Source: Glycera tridactyla
Lineage: Eukaryota
DNA length: 64,000 nt
NCBI GenBank assembly: GCA_965644265.1
Contig: OZ286473.1
Span: 23,126,001 to 23,190,000, forward strand
Direction: 5' to 3'
Shown here: positions 52,566-64,000 of the stretch, one piece after another
How the letters are laid out: every line of letters starts with the position of its first letter
How positions within the stretch are numbered: position 1 is the stretch's first letter
Made by a program: the position numbers and the translations under genes
The notes under the pieces: generated by a model
Told to the model about the DNA's origin: nothing
The model's database searches: none
The model's input: only the letters and a program-made list of their open reading frames with translations

Positions 52566-53234
52566 GCTGAAATTTTGAAATATTGTCATATATAGCGGGG
52601 TATATCTGACGTGTCCAAAAATTCAAAGTAGTAGAGATGGTGGTTGGGGTGGTATTGTGGATGTGAATCAATGAATATATCTCTCATTTTCTGATGCTGA
52701 AAGAGAATACTGGGTCTATCCCTTGAAGACTGAATGCATATCATCATCTGGGGCCATACTTGTGTGTACGACGGTAGGGCCGTGTATTTTTTTCTGTCTG
52801 GCACCGATATTTTTGTTCGTTCATCCTGGAAATGTGTTATGCTGTATAGCAATGATACATGTGGCTCTGTCTGAAGAATGATGTGAGATATGGCGGGAAG
52901 TGGCGGGGAGATTGGAAGACAGCTGTGGTGGTCTGAGAGTTTGGGAGGGAAGTGGCGGGAGATTTGAAGACAGCTGTGGTGGTCTGATTTGAGAGTACAA
53001 TGGATAATCTTTGAATATGGCGGTATTTTCTGCCTTGTCATTCTAAAAAAATTTGGGAACATACTATTGGAGGTGTGAACTTTCTGGACACACTATAAAA
53101 TTTGCGAGCCAATTTCATGGATCAATGGTGGACCTTTAAATAAAGCGGGAGTTTGATATTAGTGATCACCCTGTATGGGCTGAAATTGACATTGATGGTC
53201 ACCATGTAGAGGAGAATCTACGTGACTCGTAGGG

Positions 53235-53242
53235 TATAAAAA
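53235..53242 (+). promoter_or_regulatory. TATA box of Maverick gene A
   Basis: GGGTATAAAAAGG, about 190 nt upstream of ATG 53428. Confidence 0.5.
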
Positions 53243-53427
53243 GGACCACCAATTTGGATGGTGAGCTCAGGACACACCATCCTCATTGATGCTACACATC
53301 ACCCTTGCCGAGGCTTCGAAGGAAAACCCAGGATCTCCATCACATCTCCAGAACATCGGCCATCTCAGCAACCCTCTCAAAGGGATCCCAGGCACCAGCT
53401 ACACCAACCGAAGAGGATCATCAGGCG

Positions 53428-54512
53428 ATGGACCCTTCTCCATCGGGATCATCTGAGCCTACCGAAGGTGCAGTAGGACCCATGGCGTCGTCTGAGACAG
53501 GTAGGATAAATGTTTTCCATTTGTATTTCACTCAATCCACTCCCGTTGAAATGTGCGTCCTGATATATTCCGAGGATTGTGCCTACGTTGAAAATCCAGA
53601 TTCAACCAACCAATCAACCAACCAATTAACCAACCATACACTTTTCATTCAACCGGGATTCAGTTGATTTGCACCGGTATGCCGTATGCCTTCCAAAATA
53701 AATTAATTTTGAGATTATGGATCTTGTGGAGAGCGAGATGTCTTTGAAATGTTTTTTCCCGGGAATAACAGCTGATAATCTGATTTCACATGATTTTTTT
53801 CTGCTGTGGTAAATGCGGTTTGTTTTGGTGTGGTTGAATTGGGATATCAGAGATTTGTCATCTGTCACATATGTCTGGAAGGTGTCGGTATATTATGAAT
53901 GTGTGTCACTGATGAAGCAGACATGTACAAGTGCGCGTGTATGTGTGGGTGTGAGTGTGGATGTGAGTATGCGTGTCTGTGAGTGTGCGTGTGGATGATA
54001 TTTCTTATATCTCTTATCGAGTGGAATTTCATAGAATCTGTCTTGAGTATTATCAGGTGAATCATAAATCTTACCTTAGTATGGGGATGACATGATTTGA
54101 TATCCGTAGAGTTTCCCTGGTCAGATTTTGCCCCCCTCCATATAATTCCGATGAAACCTTCGGGTGATCCAATTAGATATTCACCGATATCCCGCTGTGA
54201 TATCTCATTTTCTTGTAATGATTGTGATCTCTGAGTAATGGCATTCGCGTGATGTAGCTGAATATATTATCCATTGACCTGTATCAAGTACAAAAACTGG
54301 AAATCGAGTCATATTCTCTCTTAGCTGAAGATATATCCGTTAGCCTGAGAACAGCTTGTGATATGTCTTTCAAACGTGACCTATTTTGTCTCCTCGACAA
54401 TCTCCATATAAGGGAATTGTCGGTACAACCGACCGTTACCGAAAGATTAGTGAATGATGACACTACGTGTTGATCCAGCACGTGCGTGTGCATGTGCATG
54501 TGTGAGTGTGTG

Positions 54513-54564
<52 letters not shown>

Positions 54565-55456
54565 TGTGTGCAGGTGTGAGAGAAAATGAGAATGATTGAC
54601 TATGCATGTGATAGATTTCATATGCATATTTGCTTAGACAACATCTTTTCTCGTTACTTGTAGATGACCGTAATACACAATCAGAGGAATCCTTGCGCTT
54701 TCTCAGACTGTTGCCTGCTTCCCAACATGTGGAGATAGAATTTATTATCAACCACTGGTACATCTTCATAGTGAGGGAACTTGAAGATCATGTGATGACT
54801 GCCAGGAAAAGATGGCAGGATGCAGGAATACCTCCTAAAGGGTTCTCATTGTTGAAGAGGGAATCAAAACAGCATTGAATGAGGACATGTATGATGCTGG
54901 GTATCCGTTTGCCACTCTTTTTGGCGAACTGTATTCTAAACATCCCAACACAGCTATCGAATATTTGACAAGATTCATAGCACAAGATATGGCTACCAGT
55001 GATCACAGAATGTTCCCAGAAGTGAACGAAATACACAAGGGTGACCAACTGCAGGAATTGTTGCGGAATGTTGTGTGGAGGTGTCTGACTGATTCTACAT
55101 CCTTCTGGTATCGTGAAGTTCGATTGGGACTGTGTGAAAGTGTCTTTGATGATGAGGATGAAACTTCGGATGAATCTGGTGAATTTAGTGAGGAATCGAG
55201 TGAATTCTAACATTTTAATGGTGAAATATCCCTCTTTCACCCCTTCTTTGTAGAATTCATCACACCACAGGAAGTTTTGGACATATTGACTGAATCAACC
55301 TATTCATGCTTATATGAAGAGATTGCAATCATTATTCATGAGATGGATCATATTGATCATCTTATCAACAGACAGAGACAACCACATCAATACGTTCATA
55401 TGGGTGTCATTCAATATTGGAATGGGTGTTATTTAGATATATTTATCCAGGGATAG
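53428..55456 (+). CDS. Spliced hypothetical protein, Maverick gene A (~260 aa, one frameshift)
   Basis: Exons 53428-53500, 54664-55178 (or 55199) and 55254-55456; all junctions are GT-AG and phase 1. A -1 shift near 54835-54845 joins track ORFs 54630 and 54875. No recognisable homology. Confidence 0.5.
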
Positions 55457-55592
55457 CTGAGAGTTGATATAACCATATTGCAGTTTGATGTCTAAAAATA
55501 TACTTACTTTTCTAAATACGTTTGAAAACGACAAAGTTGGTGCCGTCCTCCCAAGCAAACTCGCGAATGACCTGGCATGTGGCTGCGTCAGA

Positions 55593-55603
55593 TATATATA
55601 AAA
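55593..55603 (+). promoter_or_regulatory. TATA box upstream of the putative PolB first exon
   Basis: TATATATAAAA preceded by TGCGTCA; ATG at 55654 in ACAAACATG context. Confidence 0.4.
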
Positions 55604-55653
55604 TGTTCATCACAAGATTTTCTGCAACTTGAAGATTCTGCTGTTGGACAAAC

Positions 55654-56252
55654 ATGAGAATTCGGGCCCAACGAGCGCCACTCGTGTCCCACGCAAATGG
55701 GACGAAAAATAAATACGTTGCAGACTCCATGACTACGAAAGGTGATGTGACCCGCTATAGAGGACACGGTTCGGAGGTATAAGGTTAAACTCACAACATG
55801 ATGACATCACATATATTAATACACATTCATATGCTGACATCAGCGACGGATATGATCACCATGGTCTTTGCGGGTTGAAAAAAATTGTCCGTCTGACAAT
55901 CAGTCAATCAGTTTGAATGTGTGCGCCATCCATCCAACCGTCCATCCATCCGTCCATCCATCCATCCATCCATCGGTCCATCCATCCATCGGTCCTATGC
56001 TTAGACGGTGCAATTATCACCAAGATATTGTATACTTGTTCCAGATGTGCATGATGCATTACCAATATCAGCGGCAAAAATCAATGAAATGATAGACCTG
56101 GCCTGTGATGAAACAATCCCCCCTGGGGCACACCGAGCATCAGCGATGGACATATCTACCACTGAATCTGAAACTGATGAGATCAGTAAACCAGCACTAC
56201 CTAAGAGACGGCCGAAAAAAAGTTATCAGGAAGAGCGCAATTTCTTTGCAAC
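55654..56252 (+). CDS. Putative first two exons of the extended PolB gene
   Basis: 55654-55741 (phase-1 donor) and 56045-56252 (ttccag acceptor; strong gtaagt donor at 56253, phase 2). Encodes ..[17 protein letters not shown].. with an NLS-like basic patch. Confidence 0.45.
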
Positions 56253-56712
56253 GTAAGTTCATTATATCTTGATAATCTTTCTTTACTACAGGATGTGATC
56301 ATCATATTACTTTAACTCTATTAATTCTATACACAGGCAAAATTGATGTCAATAGTTGGGGCGAAAATATAGTAAAAGTGACACCTATGGAGGATCTTGT
56401 GAATGAAATTGATGAAATTCCCTGAGTTCGTATTTTAGATGGTACTTGAACCATATGTGATCACTCAACTGTCACGACCTCAAGTATATTCCGTATTCAC
56501 CAATTTGTATTCTATAAGGTCATATCGCTGAATCACGTGGGTGTCATAGGGAGATATCCTATCATATTGAATAGATTGACTGATAAGATGTGTGTCTATT
56601 ACATTCTGAATGAATGTGAATTTTGTGGTGAGTATAGGATTTTAGTGTTCTGTCATTCGATCATATCATAATACTCACGTGTTCATGGTAGAAATATTCT
56701 GTATCATTCCAG

Positions 56713-59382
56713 TGTTTTGTGTCGTGGACTTGTGCGTGCCATCTCCGTGTTCGGTGAGGAGATGCACACGGCTCTCTCTTCTCAACTCGCTTCCGTGACG
56801 GTGCCGGCTAGCCCTCGAGTGAACCAATTCCTATCCATGGTTCAAGCACCTGCTCTCAACAACAACCCAGCAGCTGCTAGGAAATCATCAATTAAGGGAG
56901 TATCGGGAAAAAGCTCAAAACCATCCAAGAACGACAAGAAGCCCACAGCACGTGCAAAGTTGCTCGTGCCCCCGTTGGGAAGACTTTGAAAACAGGCAAT
57001 AAGGTTTCTATCCGAAAGGGTGGTAAGGGTGCATCTGAAACATTGCCAAAATTGGTATCATCCCCCATTTTGTCCAGGTCGATCACCCGTAAATCTGATT
57101 CTCAGATCAAAAATTCCAATCATTCGACCATCCCAATTTCTGGAACAGATAGTAGTAAGGACGAAAGTAAAATTGACACGAATTTGGATGATACCAAAGG
57201 GGATTCGGTCAAATTTGGTCATAAAGCACCCGGCAAGAGTGTCGAGTCCAAATTACCACTACTTTCATCAGCTCCAAAGAAATGCATGACTACAGAGATC
57301 GGTGATAATGTTGTTCAATTTCAGGAGAAAGAACTTCGTAAAACAAGTTCTTTCACATCAAAGCTCTCTACTGGGAAGAAGCGAGTTGGAGTTGATCTGC
57401 GTGAGCCACCTGAGCAGATTAAGTCTAGGAAGCTTGAGAAGGTGACCATCAAACCACCACAGCTGCGTCCGATGCCACCACAACAGCCGCCGATCACACG
57501 TAACGCCCAACCACCACACAAGCAGCCGAAACAGCGTCAAGCTGTCATAGGTAATGATTCCTCCACTCCATTAAGTGATGTGTTTGCAGAAGCATTGGCT
57601 GGAATTCAGTCTTTAAATGAATGCTCTGGTTCATCCTATGGTTATCCTATCCCTTTGTCATTACCTGACATATCTTCAATGACATTAGAATCACCAAATT
57701 TATCACCTTCTGTGACAAAATGTACAGGCAAATCTGATACTCAAGATGTGAGTTTGAGTCACAAAGCCTCAATTTCATCATCACGGTATTCACAAGCCAA
57801 TCCACATCTATTGGATACTTCACCAGTTCACACTTCTGTATCACAGGTGTCAACTGTGAAGATTCCAAGTGATTCACAAACCTCTCTGGTTTATATATCG
57901 AAAGTGGCACCATCTGTGTCAGATGCACCGATAGTGTCATTACAACTGCCGTCGTTAAGTGCTTTATTATATATCAACACTCCTGTGTCACATGTGAAAT
58001 CATCTCAGGTATCTACAACTTTGGTGTCATCATCATCACATCACCGTGTCTCATCATCGGTGCTATCAGTATCTGAACCCGATCAGTCATCGGTCACCAC
58101 TGTGACATCGAGCTCTGATTATTTTTCAAAATTACCGATTCCCGGTGATTTCACTAAAAAAGTGAATTGTAAACCACCACTTATCCGGACCGGATCATGT
58201 GTCCCACCATTATCAGCCAAAGTTCTTAATCAGAAGAACACTTTCCAGATAAGTAGGTTACAGCTTCGTAAATCTTGTGTGAATAATAATCCAGCAAAGT
58301 ATGTCGAAGACACACCCAGAAGGGTGAAAATTCCAATCTGTAGGAATTTGTTCCAAGTGTTTGATGGTGGATCAAGTGATAATTCTAAAAATATATCCAC
58401 TCCGTCACTGGGTTGCACCACTCTATCAGAATCATCTTTTTCTGAGGATGATTCTTGTGGACCATCTCTCTCATCCTTACATTCTGACGGTCATGTCATC
58501 AAAAGTGACTCATCAAAAGTTAAGGTGTCTGAGACCGTAGTGATTAGAAAGGGTGACGTGTGTAGAGATATTATTTCAGACACATCCAGTAAGATGGACA
58601 TAATTTATATTGATTCTTCTGATGAGAAATCTGATGAAAAAGGTGAAATGAGTGGTAAAGATGACAATGGGGTGTCTCCTAATAATTGTTGTGAATCAGA
58701 TCAGAGTGATGGCCCCATTTTTGTCTGGGACGATTGTGATAGTGAGCTGAGCGGTGGTGATGATATCCAAAGTTCAGTTATCAACGTTAATGATGAGCAT
58801 GAATCTGGTGGTGATGATATCTCTGATATGCATGGCAACGACGATAACAGTAATGATGACGACAATGATAGTGACAACGACAGCGATGACAACGATGATC
58901 GTCAGGGTGACAAGGACGATAATACCGGCGACGACAACGACGATAATAGTAGTGACGATAACTCAACTGATGACGATAATAGTACCGGTGATGATGACAA
59001 TTACAACGGTGACGACGATAACAGCGGGGGTGACAATAATTCTGACAATGACGACTATGACGCGGACGATGATTCTAGCGACGGTTGTGACGAAGAAAAT
59101 GATAGTGGAAACGATGCTGATGACGAGTATGAATCATCGTCTGAATCTCAAATCATCAATGACAATTGTGACAACATTGAAATATGTGGTGATGACACAG
59201 GGGTGAATAACAACTTAGGTACTGAACAGATCACTCATGATGCTATGCAACCATCTAAACACCCTCTTATTTCATTTTCATGCCGTATATGTAGTTCAAA
59301 TGAGACCGGTGAAGAAGGGGTTGTGAAATCCGATTTCTCGTGCTTACAAGACATCTATGACCATGTGCAAGAACACCATAAG
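56713..59382 (+). CDS. Long Ser/Pro/Lys-rich, Asp-rich region ending in a C2H2-like finger; putative N-terminal exon of PolB
   Basis: Track ORFs 56717 and 56986 join by a -1 shift near 56955. Asp-rich tract ~58840-59130; CRIC..HVQEH finger; phase-2 acceptor at 56712 and phase-0 donor AAG|GTATAT at 59383. Confidence 0.7.
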
Positions 59383-59736
59383 GTATATATTCCTGAAATC
59401 TACTTGATCAGTATGAATATAGACTCAATTTTGGATATATCAATATGGAGTTCTCAGTTGATGATACTACATTTTCATATATCACCTCCTCATTCAAGTT
59501 TTTATTCATTGAATGCAGTAGTGATAGGGCTTTTCAATCCAATTATCATTGTCTGAATTTGGGACTAATGCTCGCCTAATTTTTGATTCATCAAGTCTGT
59601 AGCACAGATAGATGCCAGTGAATATGTGGCGTAATGTCACATCTTATGTGTACTGGCAATTTAACTTATTTTCTGAGGACCCTTTTGGTGTGTATCTCCA
59701 TGAAAATATATGAGTTTTTTCTCTATCTTGTTTCAG

Positions 59737-62700
59737 ACAATTAGACAAGATCATACTGGTGGTGCACCAACAACAAGATCAAGGGCGAGAAATCGGAAAT
59801 CCCCCTCTTCTTCATCCGGCAATGTCAAAGGCGGTAGAGGCGGTGGTGGTGGTGGTGGTGGTGGTGGTGGCGGTGATAGCAAAGCAAGAAGCACAGGTGG
59901 TGACACGAAACGGATCGGATCAACTTCGACAAGCCGTCTGAACAGTAAGACCAGTGATAAATCTATTTTGCATGATAAAGGTAATGCTGCTACATCTACA
60001 TCAGCTAATGCATCTAATTCATCACCACAATCTTCATCATCTAGCGGTGATGACGGACATGATGGCGGTGGTGATCATGGTGGTGGCGAAGGTGGTGGCG
60101 ATGGTGGTGGCGATGGTGGTGGCGACGATGGTGGTGATGATGGTGATGATGATGGTGACGGTGGTGATGAATCTCCTGCATTAAGTGATGAAGATGATGA
60201 TGACAATGTGGATGATGATCCCCTTGAAGATTTTTTAAATATTGCCGACATTAGAGTGAGTCCAAATGAGCAAGCTGACCATAATGCAGGCTCACCAATC
60301 AACTACATTTCCCCTAACAACCCTTTGTATATCCATTCACCAGTTGTTATCAATGATGACGAGCAGGAGATATTTCAAGTACAACGATATGCACATGAAA
60401 CTTTTGCGGGTGGGTTGGTCGGGGGAGCTCTTTTTAAGATAACCCCTCTAGATTCATTTCTCTCCACAATTTCGCCATCATCTATAGAGGAGATCCGTGA
60501 TGTTATCAAAGTGATTCTAGAGAAAATTCTTGAAGGGTTTTCAAATTCAAGCTCTCCTGACAATATTTTCAAAATAGTATTTGATCAGGCTTTGTTAGAT
60601 TCCCCTTTGATAATTGAGCCTCAGAAATATTCTGAACTCAACATCTGGGAGATTCTTGGTAAAATAGCTGCCGTATTACAATCTAAGAGAGAAGTAGCCA
60701 TTGATAGAACCTTTTTTATAACAGTTTCAGTGATTAGATCTATAGAAGATGGCGGCTTTGGTAGCAGAAAAACCATATCACTATTAAATGAAGACACACA
60801 ATCTCTGTATGCTAAACGGTCTATTGTGCAAATTCGTAATGACTGTAGTGAAAGTTGTCTTCCCCGTTCTGTTCTGGTCTCGTGGGCTTGTAACGTGCAG
60901 ACAACTAAAGAGAATTTTCAGTTGTTGAAAATTGACAGTGATAAGGATGATGTTGATACATGTTTGAGGGTTGGTAAAACAACCCCAGCTCTTTACAAGG
61001 CGATAAGGGATCCTAGAGGAAAGGTTCAGGATAGAGCTCTCCATAAATTACTTTTGAGAGCTGGGCTTGGCGATCAGGAAACTTTCAATCTCAATCATTT
61101 GGAAAATTTAGAAGAGACTTTGAAGTGTGGGGTATATGTATTATCACAGCTTAGTGGTAATAAGTTTGTAAGGACACCCCCACAACATATCAAAGAGTTC
61201 GGATGGATCAAAGTCTATATTTATCATCACAGGATTGATCCTGGGGACATAACATCTCCATTCCATTTCGACTCAATTACAAAATTGAATGCGTTCTTCG
61301 ATAAACGGGCCATCTGCGAGGAATGCTGTAAACCAAAAAAGAATGATTTCAGCGTGTGCTGTATGCCGCCAAAATGCTGGAAATGTGAATCAAATTATTG
61401 TGGATTGATAAAGAATAAGGAGGATGTCATATCATGTAAGTCATGTACTACTTCGTTCAAATCTCTAGAATGTTATGAACGCCACAAATCTGTGACATGT
61501 ATGAAATTTTGGACATGTGGTTGGTGTTCTAAAACGTTTGAATATTCCAAAAGGACCAGAGAATTTCACCAGTGTGGTGAATATTTATGTAAAAAATGTG
61601 ACAATTACTTTTTGGATCATCATGTGTGTTATATTCGGGCCAAACCTACAAATGTCCAGAAGAGTAAGAATAGGAAAGACAATTTGTTCATATTCTTCGA
61701 TATAGAAACAACTCAAGAGGATGTGACACAATGTTCTCTTGGAAATTTATTGCCACAACAGAGATGTGACAGTTGCAGAGATAGTGTCTTTCCATGTAAT
61801 GTGTGCAGCAAGTGTTTGAATTGCGGTAGTCCAACATGTGGATGCTTTAAGCATAACGGCAATCTGGTGGTCGCTCAGAAAGCATGTGATGAGTGCCGTG
61901 ATTTGCCCTTTGCAGCTGATATCCCGTGCAATCGTTGTGGAGATAGATGTAGTTTGAAATGTAAGCTTAGACGTAAGAAAGACCCGGTAAGACAATATAA
62001 GCAAAAACAAGTGTGTCCTGAGGGCGATTGTGGTACGAGAGAAAGAGTCTTTTTTGGGGATTCATGCATCAGAAATTTCCTGACCTGGCTACTGTCACCT
62101 GAAAATGATGGTGCAACTGTGATATCTCACAATGGCAGCGGGTATGATCATATCTTGATTTTACGAGAATTGCTAAGAAATAAGGACATTGACCCTGCCG
62201 AAGTGATATTCACAGGCTCAAAACTATTATTCATGGAGATCAACAATCCCATTTCCATACGATTTCTGGACAATTACAAGTTCATATCGTATCCGCTAGC
62301 CTCACTACCCAAGGCCTTCCATCTGAATCAATCCGAGGATTCAGAAATTGACGTCAACCTGTGCAAAGGTTATTTCCCTCACTTATTCAATAAGAAATGT
62401 AACGAGAACTATGTGGGACCTTATCCATCGCAATCTTACTATTCTGTAAACACGATGAAGCCTGAAACGGCAGACGCTTTCGATCTATGGTATAATGAAA
62501 AGATGATATCTGGCGATGTTTTTGATCTTAAGTCTGAATTAATCTCATACTGCATAAATGATGTAGTCATTCTGAGACTAACATGTATGAAATTTCGGAA
62601 ATTGGTTATGGAATTATGCGGGATAGACCCCTACGAGAAATCAATGACGCTGGCCAGCATGGCTATGAGAATATTCCAGACCAAATTCATCACAGAGTAT

Positions 62701-64000
62701 TATGAGGTACTTTTGTCACTAAAACCCGGCTCTACAGCACTCGAGTGGATACAAACTGGTATATATTACTCAGCCTGTCAACGGAATGGTGAAATCAAGA
62801 TTGATTTTGGTAACGGTCGTGGAATGATACTCTTTAAAAATTTACCTAAGGGGTATAAGATTGAGAAAAAGAAGTTCTTGTACACCGAATTAGGTCGAGT
62901 CCCACCAGGTGGTTATCGAAGTTACATTCACGGTCATAGTAAGATTGCGTTGGAATGGCTGGGGTTTATGGCAGAAAGTGAATCATATGAAATTTATCAT
63001 GCTGGCAACTGGTCGGAGGTAGGGATAAGAATGAGAGATGGCAGAGTGGTGTATGCCGACGGATTTGCCACAGGTGACGGGAGGTCTCTCCCTATAAAAC
63101 CTGTTATTCAAAATCCAACACCCGGTGACACTATATTTTACTTTCACGGGTGTTGGTTTCATTCTTGCCCATCATGTTTCCCCTTGAATCGAAACGCCGT
63201 CCATTGTGAAAAAACTGACAGAACCAGAAATGAGATATATCAAGAAACCATAAATAGGTCAGCTCTACTTTCTGCTATGGGGTTCAATATAATTACGTGT
63301 TGGGAGCATGATTTCAGGTCACTTCTTATTAACAATCTCTTTGCACAGGTTGTTGTTAATGGTCTGGAAGAGATTGAGGATCCAATGGATCCAAGAGATG
63401 GATATTACGGTGGGAGGGTTGAGGTTTTCAAGATGAGTTATTCAGAGGGAGATATCCGCCTAGATGAATCTTCCAATCTCACATTCCCACGAGTAGAATA
63501 TGCCGATGTCACTTCATTATACCCCTGGGTGATGAAATCCAAGAAGTTTCCTCTAGGTCACCCCAAAGTTATGACCTATGATTTGTATACTGGTGGGTTT
63601 GATCTGTCATTAAAACCATATTTTGGATTGGCCAAAGTATCAATTCTACCTCCTAGAAAACTGTATTATCCGGTCTTACCATTCAGAATCAGGCAAAAAC
63701 TACTCTTTTCCCTGTGCGCACAATGTTCATCTCAAGAGAAACCACCCAAGATTTGTTCATGCCCTGATTCTTCCAGAGTTATTAAAGGGACATGGGTGAC
63801 ACCCGAGTTGAGATTTGCTATAGATAGAGGGTATAAGGTTCTGAAAATTCACGAAGTTTATCATTATGATAAGACTTCTGAGAATACAATCGACTCTTTC
63901 ACAAATGAAAATGTGAATCTTTTCAAAGACTATGTGAATCTGTTTTTAAAAATAAAAACAGAGAGTAGTGGATACCCCACAGGCTGTGAGTCATACGCTG
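59737..64000 (+). CDS. polB: Protein-primed family B DNA polymerase (Maverick/Polinton pPolB), 3'-truncated by the window
   Basis: 1421 codons without a stop. Motifs: FDIET (ExoI, 61699), HNGSGYD (ExoII), KGYFPHLFN, YCINDV (ExoIII), PRDGYYGGRVE, YADVTSLYP (motif A, 63499), GTWVTPEL and LFKDYVNLFLKIK..SSGYP. An unspliced start is possible at ATG 59710. Confidence 0.95.

What the first reader, a model, noticed from the sequence alone, without database searches (positions are those of the whole stretch)
55654..64000. Maverick PolB apparently spliced to a ~1,000-aa disordered, acidic, zinc-finger N-terminal extension (>2,400 aa)
Seen: a phase-0 GT-AG intron (59383-59736, with a pyrimidine tract before TTTCAG) joins the 56713-59382 ORF, right after its C2H2-like finger, in frame to the PolB ORF. 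Upstream, the strong donor at 56253 (phase 2) matches the acceptor at 56712 (phase 2), and 55654-55741 matches 56045 (phase 1). After the 59383 donor the upstream ORF reads like AT-rich intron. Established: Polinton pPolBs are usually single-exon terminal protein-(OTU)-exonuclease-polymerase fusions. Inference: this is a four-exon, host-spliced polymerase with a large intrinsically disordered, Asp-rich (possibly histone-chaperone or DNA-mimic) extension. The model needs one missing base near 56955.
Basis: partly seen in the sequence, partly recalled or inferred. Interest (0 to 1): 0.8.

Follow-up and report, generated by a model that had tools for sequence, protein, structure and literature searches.

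The report
Spliced giant Maverick polymerase, shared leader
A virus-like Maverick transposon in an animal genome likely uses host splicing to join one short leader exon to several alternative genes, the last predicted to be an unusually large (about 2,700 residues) DNA polymerase with a floppy zinc-finger front end; the splice sites are conserved across related elements, but no RNA proof was available.

Summary
Their ends are kept in 30-31 of 31 genomic copies and at the same phases in all 10 lineage representatives examined, down to 39% protein identity. The frame break near 56955 is this copy's defect: the exon is open in 23 of 31 copies. The likely first exon is a TATA-driven coding leader (ATG 53428, phase-1 donor 53500|53501). 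It faces three tandem phase-1 acceptors (54664, 55254, 56045), so one promoter likely yields two small proteins and a ~2,696-residue PolB, as adenovirus E2B yields pTP and Pol. The 984-residue extension is basic, then Ser-rich, then acidic; the acidic tract is not conserved, so the histone-chaperone idea is weak. Intronless relatives have zinc finger, QxGG and terminal-protein domain in one ORF, so the leader is an enlarged viral feature, possibly cut off by the element's protease. This scan already noted spliced Maverick PolB leaders in other genomes; a shared leader with alternative acceptors is not in those note summaries.

The parts
52036..52041 (.). 6-bp target-site duplication (left copy)
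   Evidence: same hexamer flanks the right end at extended position 79476-79481; 6-bp duplications also in 2 of 3 other copies checked, 5 of 6 letters in the third
52042..52107 (.). left terminal inverted repeat of the Maverick; the element spans 52042 to extended position 79475 (27.4 kb)
   Evidence: self-BLAST and copy boundaries
53232..53244 (+). TATA box, likely promoter of the unit
   Evidence: conserved in subfamilies 1-3; TATA-like word 206-356 nt before the leader donor in 5 of 7 deeper families
53264..53500 (+). predicted leader exon; in-frame ATG at 53428 (24 codons + 1 nt); phase-1 donor 53500|53501; start site inferred
   Evidence: donor conserved; ATG-started frame ending at a phase-1 G|GT donor in 7 of 7 deeper families
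54664..55210 (+). alternative exon 1 (phase-1 acceptor; 181-codon ORF, unknown helical protein); frameshifted near 54850 in this copy
   Evidence: acceptor in 23 of the 23 copies that cover it; pN/pS 0.44 between subfamilies 1 and 3; break shown
55254..56004 (+). alternative exon 2 (phase-1 acceptor 43 nt after the previous stop; 160-codon ORF with invariant CxC..C..H); interrupted in this copy by the foreign patch
   Evidence: acceptor in 28 of 31; dN/dS 0.21; homologs in 7 of 7 deeper families; AlphaFold pLDDT 88.5
55444..55995 (.).
   Evidence: 97% identical to the F50 family left region; 17 genomic places, 8 in or beside this subfamily's copies and 9 elsewhere, 8 of those near F50-type PolB matches
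56045..56252 (+). PolB exon 2 (208 nt, phase 1 in, phase 2 out), 40 nt after the stop of exon 2; LxCxE at 56098-56112 followed by an acidic Ser/Thr stretch
   Evidence: phase-2 donor in 7 of 7 deeper families; LxCxE in 23 of 31 copies but in the short exon of 0 of 7 deeper families
56253..56712 (+). intron, GT-AG, phase 2, 460 nt
56713..59382 (+). PolB exon 3 (2,670 nt here, frame broken near 56955): conserved N-terminal helix, basic, Ser-rich and acidic (58834-59133) low-complexity tracts, C2H2-like finger 59281-59382
   Evidence: open in 23 of 31 copies and 9 of 10 lineage representatives; dN/dS 0.45; helix and finger aligned across lineages
59383..59736 (+). intron, GT-AG, phase 0, 354 nt
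   Evidence: 31 of 31 copies; 10 of 10 lineage representatives; non-3n gaps
59737..64000 (+). PolB exon 4 (continues to 64875): HTGG motif 59752-59763, low-complexity linker, terminal-protein domain from about 60346, vOTU (Cys near 60856, His near 61264), Cys-rich insert, exonuclease (Exo I 61693), polymerase (motif A 63499)

Best explanation
This Maverick likely transcribes its left end as one unit in which a short coding leader is spliced to one of three tandem acceptors, the third giving a predicted four-exon, ~2,696-residue protein: a ~984-residue low-complexity zinc-finger extension fused in frame to the terminal protein-OTU-exonuclease-polymerase. Shown: the promoter-like word, the donor and acceptor dinucleotides, their phases, the open frames and their conservation across copies and families. 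Inferred: that the junctions are used (about 0.8 for the two downstream introns, about 0.7 for the shared leader with alternative acceptors); that acceptor choice sets the ratio of small accessory proteins to polymerase; and that the element's own adenovirus-type protease later cuts at the HxGG/QxGG motif just after the last junction, freeing the extension as a nucleic-acid-binding regulatory or scaffold protein (about 0.5).
For: Splice dinucleotides in 30-31 of 31 copies. Same chain of phases (leader 1; short exon 1 to 2; large exon 2 to 0; PolB exon 0) in 10 of 10 lineage representatives, TP-region identity 39-98%. Protein similarity starts at the phase-2 acceptor and ends at the phase-0 donor; read-through tails differ in sequence and run from 6 to 61 codons. 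Subfamily 1 vs 2 indels: 7 of 7 are 3n in the large exon, 4 of 4 in the PolB exon start, 1 of 4 in the two introns; subfamily 1 vs 3: 23 of 33 in the large exon, 3 of 13 in the introns. Best-scoring AG near the start of upstream ORFs is phase 1 in 19 of 23. The xQxG motif is in 7 of 7 deeper families and lies before the first nearby in-frame Met in 4 of 7, so it is translated there only if spliced in. Zinc finger(s), Q-x-G-G/A and the TP domain share one ORF in 6 of 150 database relatives under a strict pattern, and in P0009 and P0084 with longer spacing; an adintovirus protein annotated 'C2H2-type' is the second fold match. Adenovirus protease accepts Gln at P4 and cuts pTP at QRGF/G (PMC4246237 passages); the element encodes a C5 protease.
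Against: No RNA junction was observed. An in-frame ATG sits 27-30 nt before the last acceptor in subfamilies 1-3, and Mets precede the motif in 3 of 7 deeper families. The first 20 read-through codons after the 59383 donor are 60% identical between subfamilies 1 and 3, and the tail's dN/dS (0.54) is no higher in practice than the exon's (0.45). AATAAA lies in the last intron in 3 of 10 representatives, so an unspliced stand-alone zinc-finger protein may coexist. An out-of-frame ATG (53289) precedes the leader ATG in subfamilies 1-2. With a shared 3' end, mRNAs for the two small ORFs would have introns after their stops and risk nonsense-mediated decay (own knowledge). One copy has a 5-nt deletion right after the last acceptor. 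This subfamily has His, not Gln/Met/Ile/Leu, at P4. No protein of 1,415-4,040 residues related to the extension was found (a weak search). The lineages share ancestry, and ORFs and donor candidates were chosen by me, so the counts are not independent trials.
Confidence: 0.72

Rival explanations
1. Two separate products: the zinc-finger ORF ends in its read-through tail and PolB is made on its own, from ATG 59710 or from the leader spliced by another route; the fusion is minor or absent.
For: In-frame ATG just before the acceptor in subfamilies 1-3; conserved first 20 tail codons; poly(A)-like word in the intron in 3 of 10 representatives.
Against: The phase-0 donor is fixed right after the finger in 9 of 9 finger-bearing representatives and is also present in the one family without a finger; about ten ATGs lie upstream inside the intron; no Met precedes the motif nearby in 4 of 7 deeper families; the leader donor is phase 1 and the PolB acceptor phase 0, so a direct join is out of frame; relatives encode finger and TP in one ORF.
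Confidence: 0.13
2. The PolB fusion is real, but the two small ORFs have their own starts (separate promoters or trans-splicing) and do not share the leader.
For: Acceptors 16-43 nt after the previous stop resemble operon-type spacing; 12 of 23 upstream ORFs have a Met within 25 codons of the best acceptor; no RNA.
Against: Trans-splicing would not need one phase, yet 19 of 23 best acceptors are phase 1 and match the only conserved upstream donor; coding conservation begins at the acceptor, before any in-frame Met, in subfamilies 1-3.
Confidence: 0.12
3. One reading: exon 55654-55741 starts the gene and the acidic tract acts as a histone chaperone or DNA mimic.
For: Phase 1 matches 56045; the patch carries a TATA-like word and is in 7 of 31 copies, so it could act as a secondary start in that sub-clade.
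Against: Absent from 24 of 31 copies and foreign in origin; the conserved leader is intact in this copy; the acidic tract is missing in some families.
Confidence: 0.03

Closest known systems
Maverick/Polinton (Alpha-type adintovirus) protein-primed PolB, PF03175, TP-vOTU-exonuclease-polymerase (PMC11071308, PMC8502044)
   Same: Domain order and catalytic motifs; element with TIRs, 6-bp TSD, integrase, ATPase-like P-loop protein, C5 protease.
   Different: Predicted four exons and ~2,696 residues; vertebrate and nematode Maverick core genes are described as intronless (PMC8097293, bioRxiv 2022.07.12.499685, passages); ~1,500-1,800 residues are called the largest replication enzymes known for Preplasmiviricota (PMC12721341, passage).
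Adenovirus E2B unit (pTP and Pol mRNAs with the same 5' exons and 3' end but different junctions to the last exon; PMC11304566 passage; 9-nt pTP first exon in PMC2397415 table)
   Same: One promoter, shared upstream exon, alternative 3' acceptors, polymerase as the most distal product (inferred here).
   Different: Here the alternative products are small accessory proteins, TP stays fused to Pol, the leader codes 24-100 residues, and Pol carries two further introns.
Adintovirus 'Oncoid' ORFs upstream of PolB with LxCxE, CK2 and paired Cys motifs (PMC8502044 passage)
   Same: Position upstream of PolB; LxCxE plus acidic Ser/Thr stretch in the 208-nt exon; Cys/His motif in small ORF 2.
   Different: The LxCxE is inside the predicted PolB precursor and is not conserved beyond subfamilies 1-2.
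Intronless Maverick PolB with N-terminal C2H2 fingers and QxGG (P0009, P0036, P0084; UniProt A0A7D4VFN9)
   Same: Low-complexity region, finger(s), QxGG, then TP.
   Different: About 200-490 residues before TP in one ORF there, against about 1,190 spread over four exons here.

Membership tests
Maverick/Polinton | [quoted passage not shown] | tested here: met
Maverick/Polinton | Protein-primed PolB (PF03175) with exonuclease and polymerase motifs | tested here: met
   E 1.7e-35; motifs
Maverick/Polinton | rve integrase and adenovirus-type C5 protease | tested here: met
   PF00665 E 9.7e-11, PF00770 E 6e-06 in a sister copy
Maverick/Polinton | Packaging ATPase and double jelly-roll capsid | tested here: inconclusive
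   P-loop protein with PF04665 E 8e-4, below cut-off; a 491-residue ORF in the capsid position had no Pfam match and was not folded
Alpha-type adintovirus PolB | OTU domain N-terminal to the PF03175 core | tested here: met
   model residues 151-316 match Otu2, Z 10.3, rmsd 2.7, 109 aligned; best viral matches are MELD/adintovirus PolB
Maverick core genes as described in vertebrates and nematodes | Intronless ORFs | tested here: inconclusive
   comparative evidence says not met, but no transcript was seen
C2H2 zinc finger | CxxC, aromatic and hydrophobic core, HxxxH spacing | tested here: inconclusive
   ligands invariant in 8 of 8 aligned lineages but with a long loop after CxxC; no Pfam match at E 0.1
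Adenovirus E2B-type transcription unit | Shared 5' exons and 3' end shown on mRNA | not testable with these tools
   no RNA run on record
Adenovirus protease substrate | (M/I/L, also Q)xGG/x or xGx/G site that is cut | tested here: inconclusive
   Q at P4 in 7 of 7 deeper families, H in subfamilies 1-3; cutting not tested
Histone chaperone / DNA mimic | Conserved acidic surface or tract | tested here: not met
   best 100-residue Asp+Glu count is 16 and 26 in two families, 48-86 in seven; one representative is frameshifted

The most novel reading that the evidence does not exclude
A whole Maverick clade runs an adenovirus-style early transcription unit: one TATA promoter and one coding leader are alternatively spliced to two to four accessory ORFs and to a ~2,700-residue replicase polyprotein, larger than any Preplasmiviricota replicase in the papers read, which the element's own protease cuts at QxGG to release a ~1,000-residue zinc-finger regulator from the terminal protein-polymerase.
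Probability: 0.4. Interest if true: 0.8.

Novelty: new variant of a known kind. Interest (0 to 1): 0.62.

Why it matters
Mavericks are annotated as arrays of intronless ORFs. If this model holds, ORF-based annotation truncates their polymerase by more than a third and misses the N-termini of their accessory genes, and 'intact' screens that require intronless genes would drop such families. It also gives a testable account of how a Maverick sets the dose of its polymerase (acceptor choice, then proteolysis) and shows that the shared-leader logic of adenovirus E2B exists in the transposon-like relatives from which adenoviruses are thought to derive. Five exact junctions are predicted and can be checked with one RNA data set.

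Tried and rejected
RNA: no RNA holder listed. Four runs laid as contigs showed no joints; two cover both introns continuously and look like DNA, the other two cover little: no evidence either way. Protein searches with the extension (longer proteins) and with PolB residues 215-540 found nothing at E 0.001; IMG/VR gave no related locus. Only the profile search found relatives (916 at E 0.001); of 10 looked up, 2 were named 'hypothetical protein' and 8 had no name. A hairpin masking the 59383 donor: folds differ among 6 lineages, rejected. Resemblance of P0005's N-terminal helix to the start of the large exon: no profile match, rejected. Fold of small ORF 2: no match at E 0.001 in PDB or viral models, best Z 5.7 for a helical bundle, no Atlas hit: inconclusive. 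Small ORFs 1 and 2 as paralogs: E 0.003, probability 11%: weak. PDB sequence search with PolB gave nothing useful. Rows dropped: family F58 (degraded, no clear junctions) and second copies of F65, F50 and F39 were left out of the 10-lineage counts; F61 is represented by either of two copies, each broken at a different place; 14 places were picked from the 127 matches. Literature searches listed no paper that describes a spliced Maverick PolB or a shared leader; Repbase entries, most subscription papers and all supplements were not seen and could hold such annotations.
Full report
Setting. The window lies in a 2.04-Gb animal-type genome. The finding is in the left third of a 27.4-kb Maverick that starts at 52042 and ends 15 kb beyond the window, with terminal inverted repeats and a 6-bp target-site duplication. 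Sister copies encode an rve integrase, a C5 protease, a P-loop protein and a TBP homolog. The last PolB exon (59737-64875, 1,712 codons) has the usual order. A model of its folded N-terminal part (pLDDT 85.7) matches OTU proteases (Z 10.3, rmsd 2.7, 109 residues) and, in the first domain, the little-finger fold (Z 6.9); its best viral matches are adintovirus and MELD PolB. Exonuclease and polymerase motifs are present.

The observation. A DNA search gave 75 matches in three identity bands at the junction (97-100%, 86-88%, 70-77%), and I took 10-kb stretches of 30 copies. With the window, n = 31: the 59383 donor, 59736 acceptor and 56712 acceptor are in 31, the 56253 donor and 56044 acceptor in 30. 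The 56713-59382 exon is a single open frame of the right phase in 23 of 31; the window is among the 8 broken ones. Between subfamilies 1 and 2 all 7 indels in that exon are multiples of three, against 1 of 4 in the introns; between subfamilies 1 and 3 it is 23 of 33 against 3 of 13. dN/dS for the exon is 0.45-0.47, against 0.09-0.12 for the polymerase body.

The exon 55654-55741 has its donor in only 7 of 31 copies. It lies in a 552-bp segment that replaces about 286 bp of coding sequence found in the other copies and is 97% identical to the left region of another family. The window copy is also frameshifted near 54850.

The likely first exon and the shared leader. Subfamilies 1-3 keep a TATA box (53232-53244) and, about 270 nt later, a donor at 53500|53501. 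An ATG in frame with a phase-1 join lies before it in all four long copies checked and in the window (53428), although at three different places. Downstream are three acceptors, all phase 1: 54664 (181-codon ORF), 55254 (160-codon ORF, 43 nt after the first stop) and 56045 (208-nt exon, 40 nt after the second stop). Both small ORFs are under purifying selection. No AATAAA or ATTAAA lies between the leader donor and the 56253 donor in subfamilies 1 and 2. Exon lengths 73 + 208 + 2,671 + 5,139 give 2,696 residues, 984 of them before the last exon.

Depth of conservation. A protein search gave 127 matches down to 37% identity. I fetched 14 places from eight bands, dropped one degraded family and counted one copy for each of seven. 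All seven have an ATG-started frame ending at a phase-1 G|GTGAGT donor, a short exon ending in a phase-2 donor, a 2.3-3.1-kb exon from a phase-2 acceptor to a phase-0 donor, and a phase-0 acceptor 5-19 codons before an xQxG motif. With subfamilies 1-3 that is 10 of 10, and the large exon is open in 9 of 10. In six of the seven the donor follows the second His of a C2H2-like finger within 1-4 codons, and the sequences after it share nothing. One to three small ORFs precede the short exon; the best-scoring AG near the start of these ORFs and short exons is phase 1 in 19 of 23 (nominal p 2e-6, overstated because the ORFs are related, were picked by me, and TAG cannot be phase 0 inside an ORF).

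What the extension is. In 75-residue windows it is basic for the first 300 residues, Ser/Thr-rich in the middle and acidic in the last third; a charge-hydropathy index is negative (unfolded) in 7 of 12 windows. It has no Pfam match. The acidic tract varies from 16 to 86 Asp+Glu per 100 residues among lineages, so it is not the conserved function. Conserved are a short N-terminal helix, the finger and the motif after the last junction. Among 150 database relatives of the TP domain, 6 have finger(s) then Q-x-G-G/A in the same ORF under a strict pattern, and others with longer spacing; one begins with a pyrimidine-type run, Q and QIGGG, like the acceptor context here. So the extension looks like an enlarged, intron-split form of a viral N-terminal leader, not a captured host gene. 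Adenovirus protease cuts (M/I/L)xGG/x or (M/I/L)xGx/G, accepts Gln at P4, and cuts pTP at QRGF/G (PMC4246237, passages). All seven deeper families fit QxGG or QxGxG; subfamilies 1-3 have HxGG. Cleavage there is a hypothesis. An LxCxE motif with an acidic Ser/Thr stretch is in the short exon of 23 of 31 copies but of none of the deeper families, recalling the 'Oncoid' ORFs upstream of adintovirus PolB (PMC8502044, passages).

Evidence against. No RNA was available. An in-frame ATG lies 9-10 codons before the last acceptor in subfamilies 1-3; the first 20 read-through codons are 60% identical between subfamilies 1 and 3 and the tail's dN/dS does not separate it from the exon; three representatives have AATAAA in that intron. 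A stand-alone zinc-finger isoform may therefore exist beside the fusion. In three of the four families without a Met before the motif, a later Met still precedes the TP domain, and in the fourth the frame stays open upstream into a shifted frame that has Mets. An out-of-frame ATG precedes the leader ATG in subfamilies 1-2.

Comparison with what is known. Passages read: intact vertebrate Mavericks have no introns (PMC8097293); nematode Maverick core genes are intronless while cargo genes have introns (bioRxiv 2022.07.12.499685); pPolB is TP-vOTU-exonuclease-polymerase, with no hit for 'splic' or 'intron' in the main text (PMC11071308); fusions of ~1,500-1,800 residues are called the largest replication enzymes of Preplasmiviricota (PMC12721341); adenovirus pTP and Pol mRNAs share their 5' exons and 3' end and differ in the junction to the last exon (PMC11304566; PMC2397415 table). 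Term look-ups in bioRxiv 2023.08.22.554363, bioRxiv 2024.03.25.586562, PMC8502044 and PMC8363768 showed nothing on spliced PolB. Nine searches listed no paper on this; Repbase and supplements were not seen. Four earlier notes of this scan report spliced micro-exon leaders on Maverick PolB in other genomes; I did not test them and they are not independent support. Their summaries describe tiny exons and introns of about 60 nt, not kilobase exons or alternative acceptors.

Verdict. A real, conserved gene structure in a bona fide Maverick: a new variant of a known kind. The two downstream introns are likely used (about 0.8), the shared leader with alternative acceptors is likely (about 0.7), and proteolytic release of the extension is an even bet. 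Interest 0.62.

Noticed in passing
L057:2954-3616 (+); beyond the window at extended 67963-68625: The element encodes a TATA-binding-protein homolog (PF00352, E 6e-28, two stretches), present in subfamilies 1 and 3. It could serve the element's own TATA promoter.
   Followed up: partly
window 55444-55995: Recombination patch between two Maverick families about 49% identical in the TP region; it removed most of small ORF 2 in a sub-clade that went on to spread (8 places).
   Followed up: yes
L058:559-1968 (+); extended 74906-76255: A downstream 430-470-residue low-complexity ORF begins at a conserved phase-0 acceptor in two subfamilies, so splicing is probably not limited to the PolB unit.
   Followed up: partly
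window 55254-56004; alignment A2: Small ORF 2 family: helical domain with invariant CxC..C..H in 9 of 9 lineages, confident model (pLDDT 88.5), no clear fold match.
   Followed up: yes
window 61320-62060: Long Cys-rich region with many CxxC pairs after the OTU domain and inside the exonuclease.
   Followed up: no
window 59330-59445: Unusually high nucleotide conservation on both sides of the 59383 donor between subfamilies 1 and 3 (synonymous divergence 0.29 against 0.58 for the whole exon; a 15-nt identical block in the intron); may be a splicing control element, unexplained.
   Followed up: partly
L039, L042-L049: Subfamily 2 copies share internal deletions in the PolB exon yet mostly keep the large upstream exon open: non-autonomous lineages that kept spreading.
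   Followed up: no
G000: A family at about 39% identity has more than 50 near-identical matches with PolB frames up to 1,710 residues and the same exon phases but no zinc finger in the large exon.
   Followed up: partly
extended 85465-89052 (+), L023: A 1,196-residue ORF outside the element that begins like an endonuclease of a LINE-type retroelement (motif recalled).
   Followed up: no
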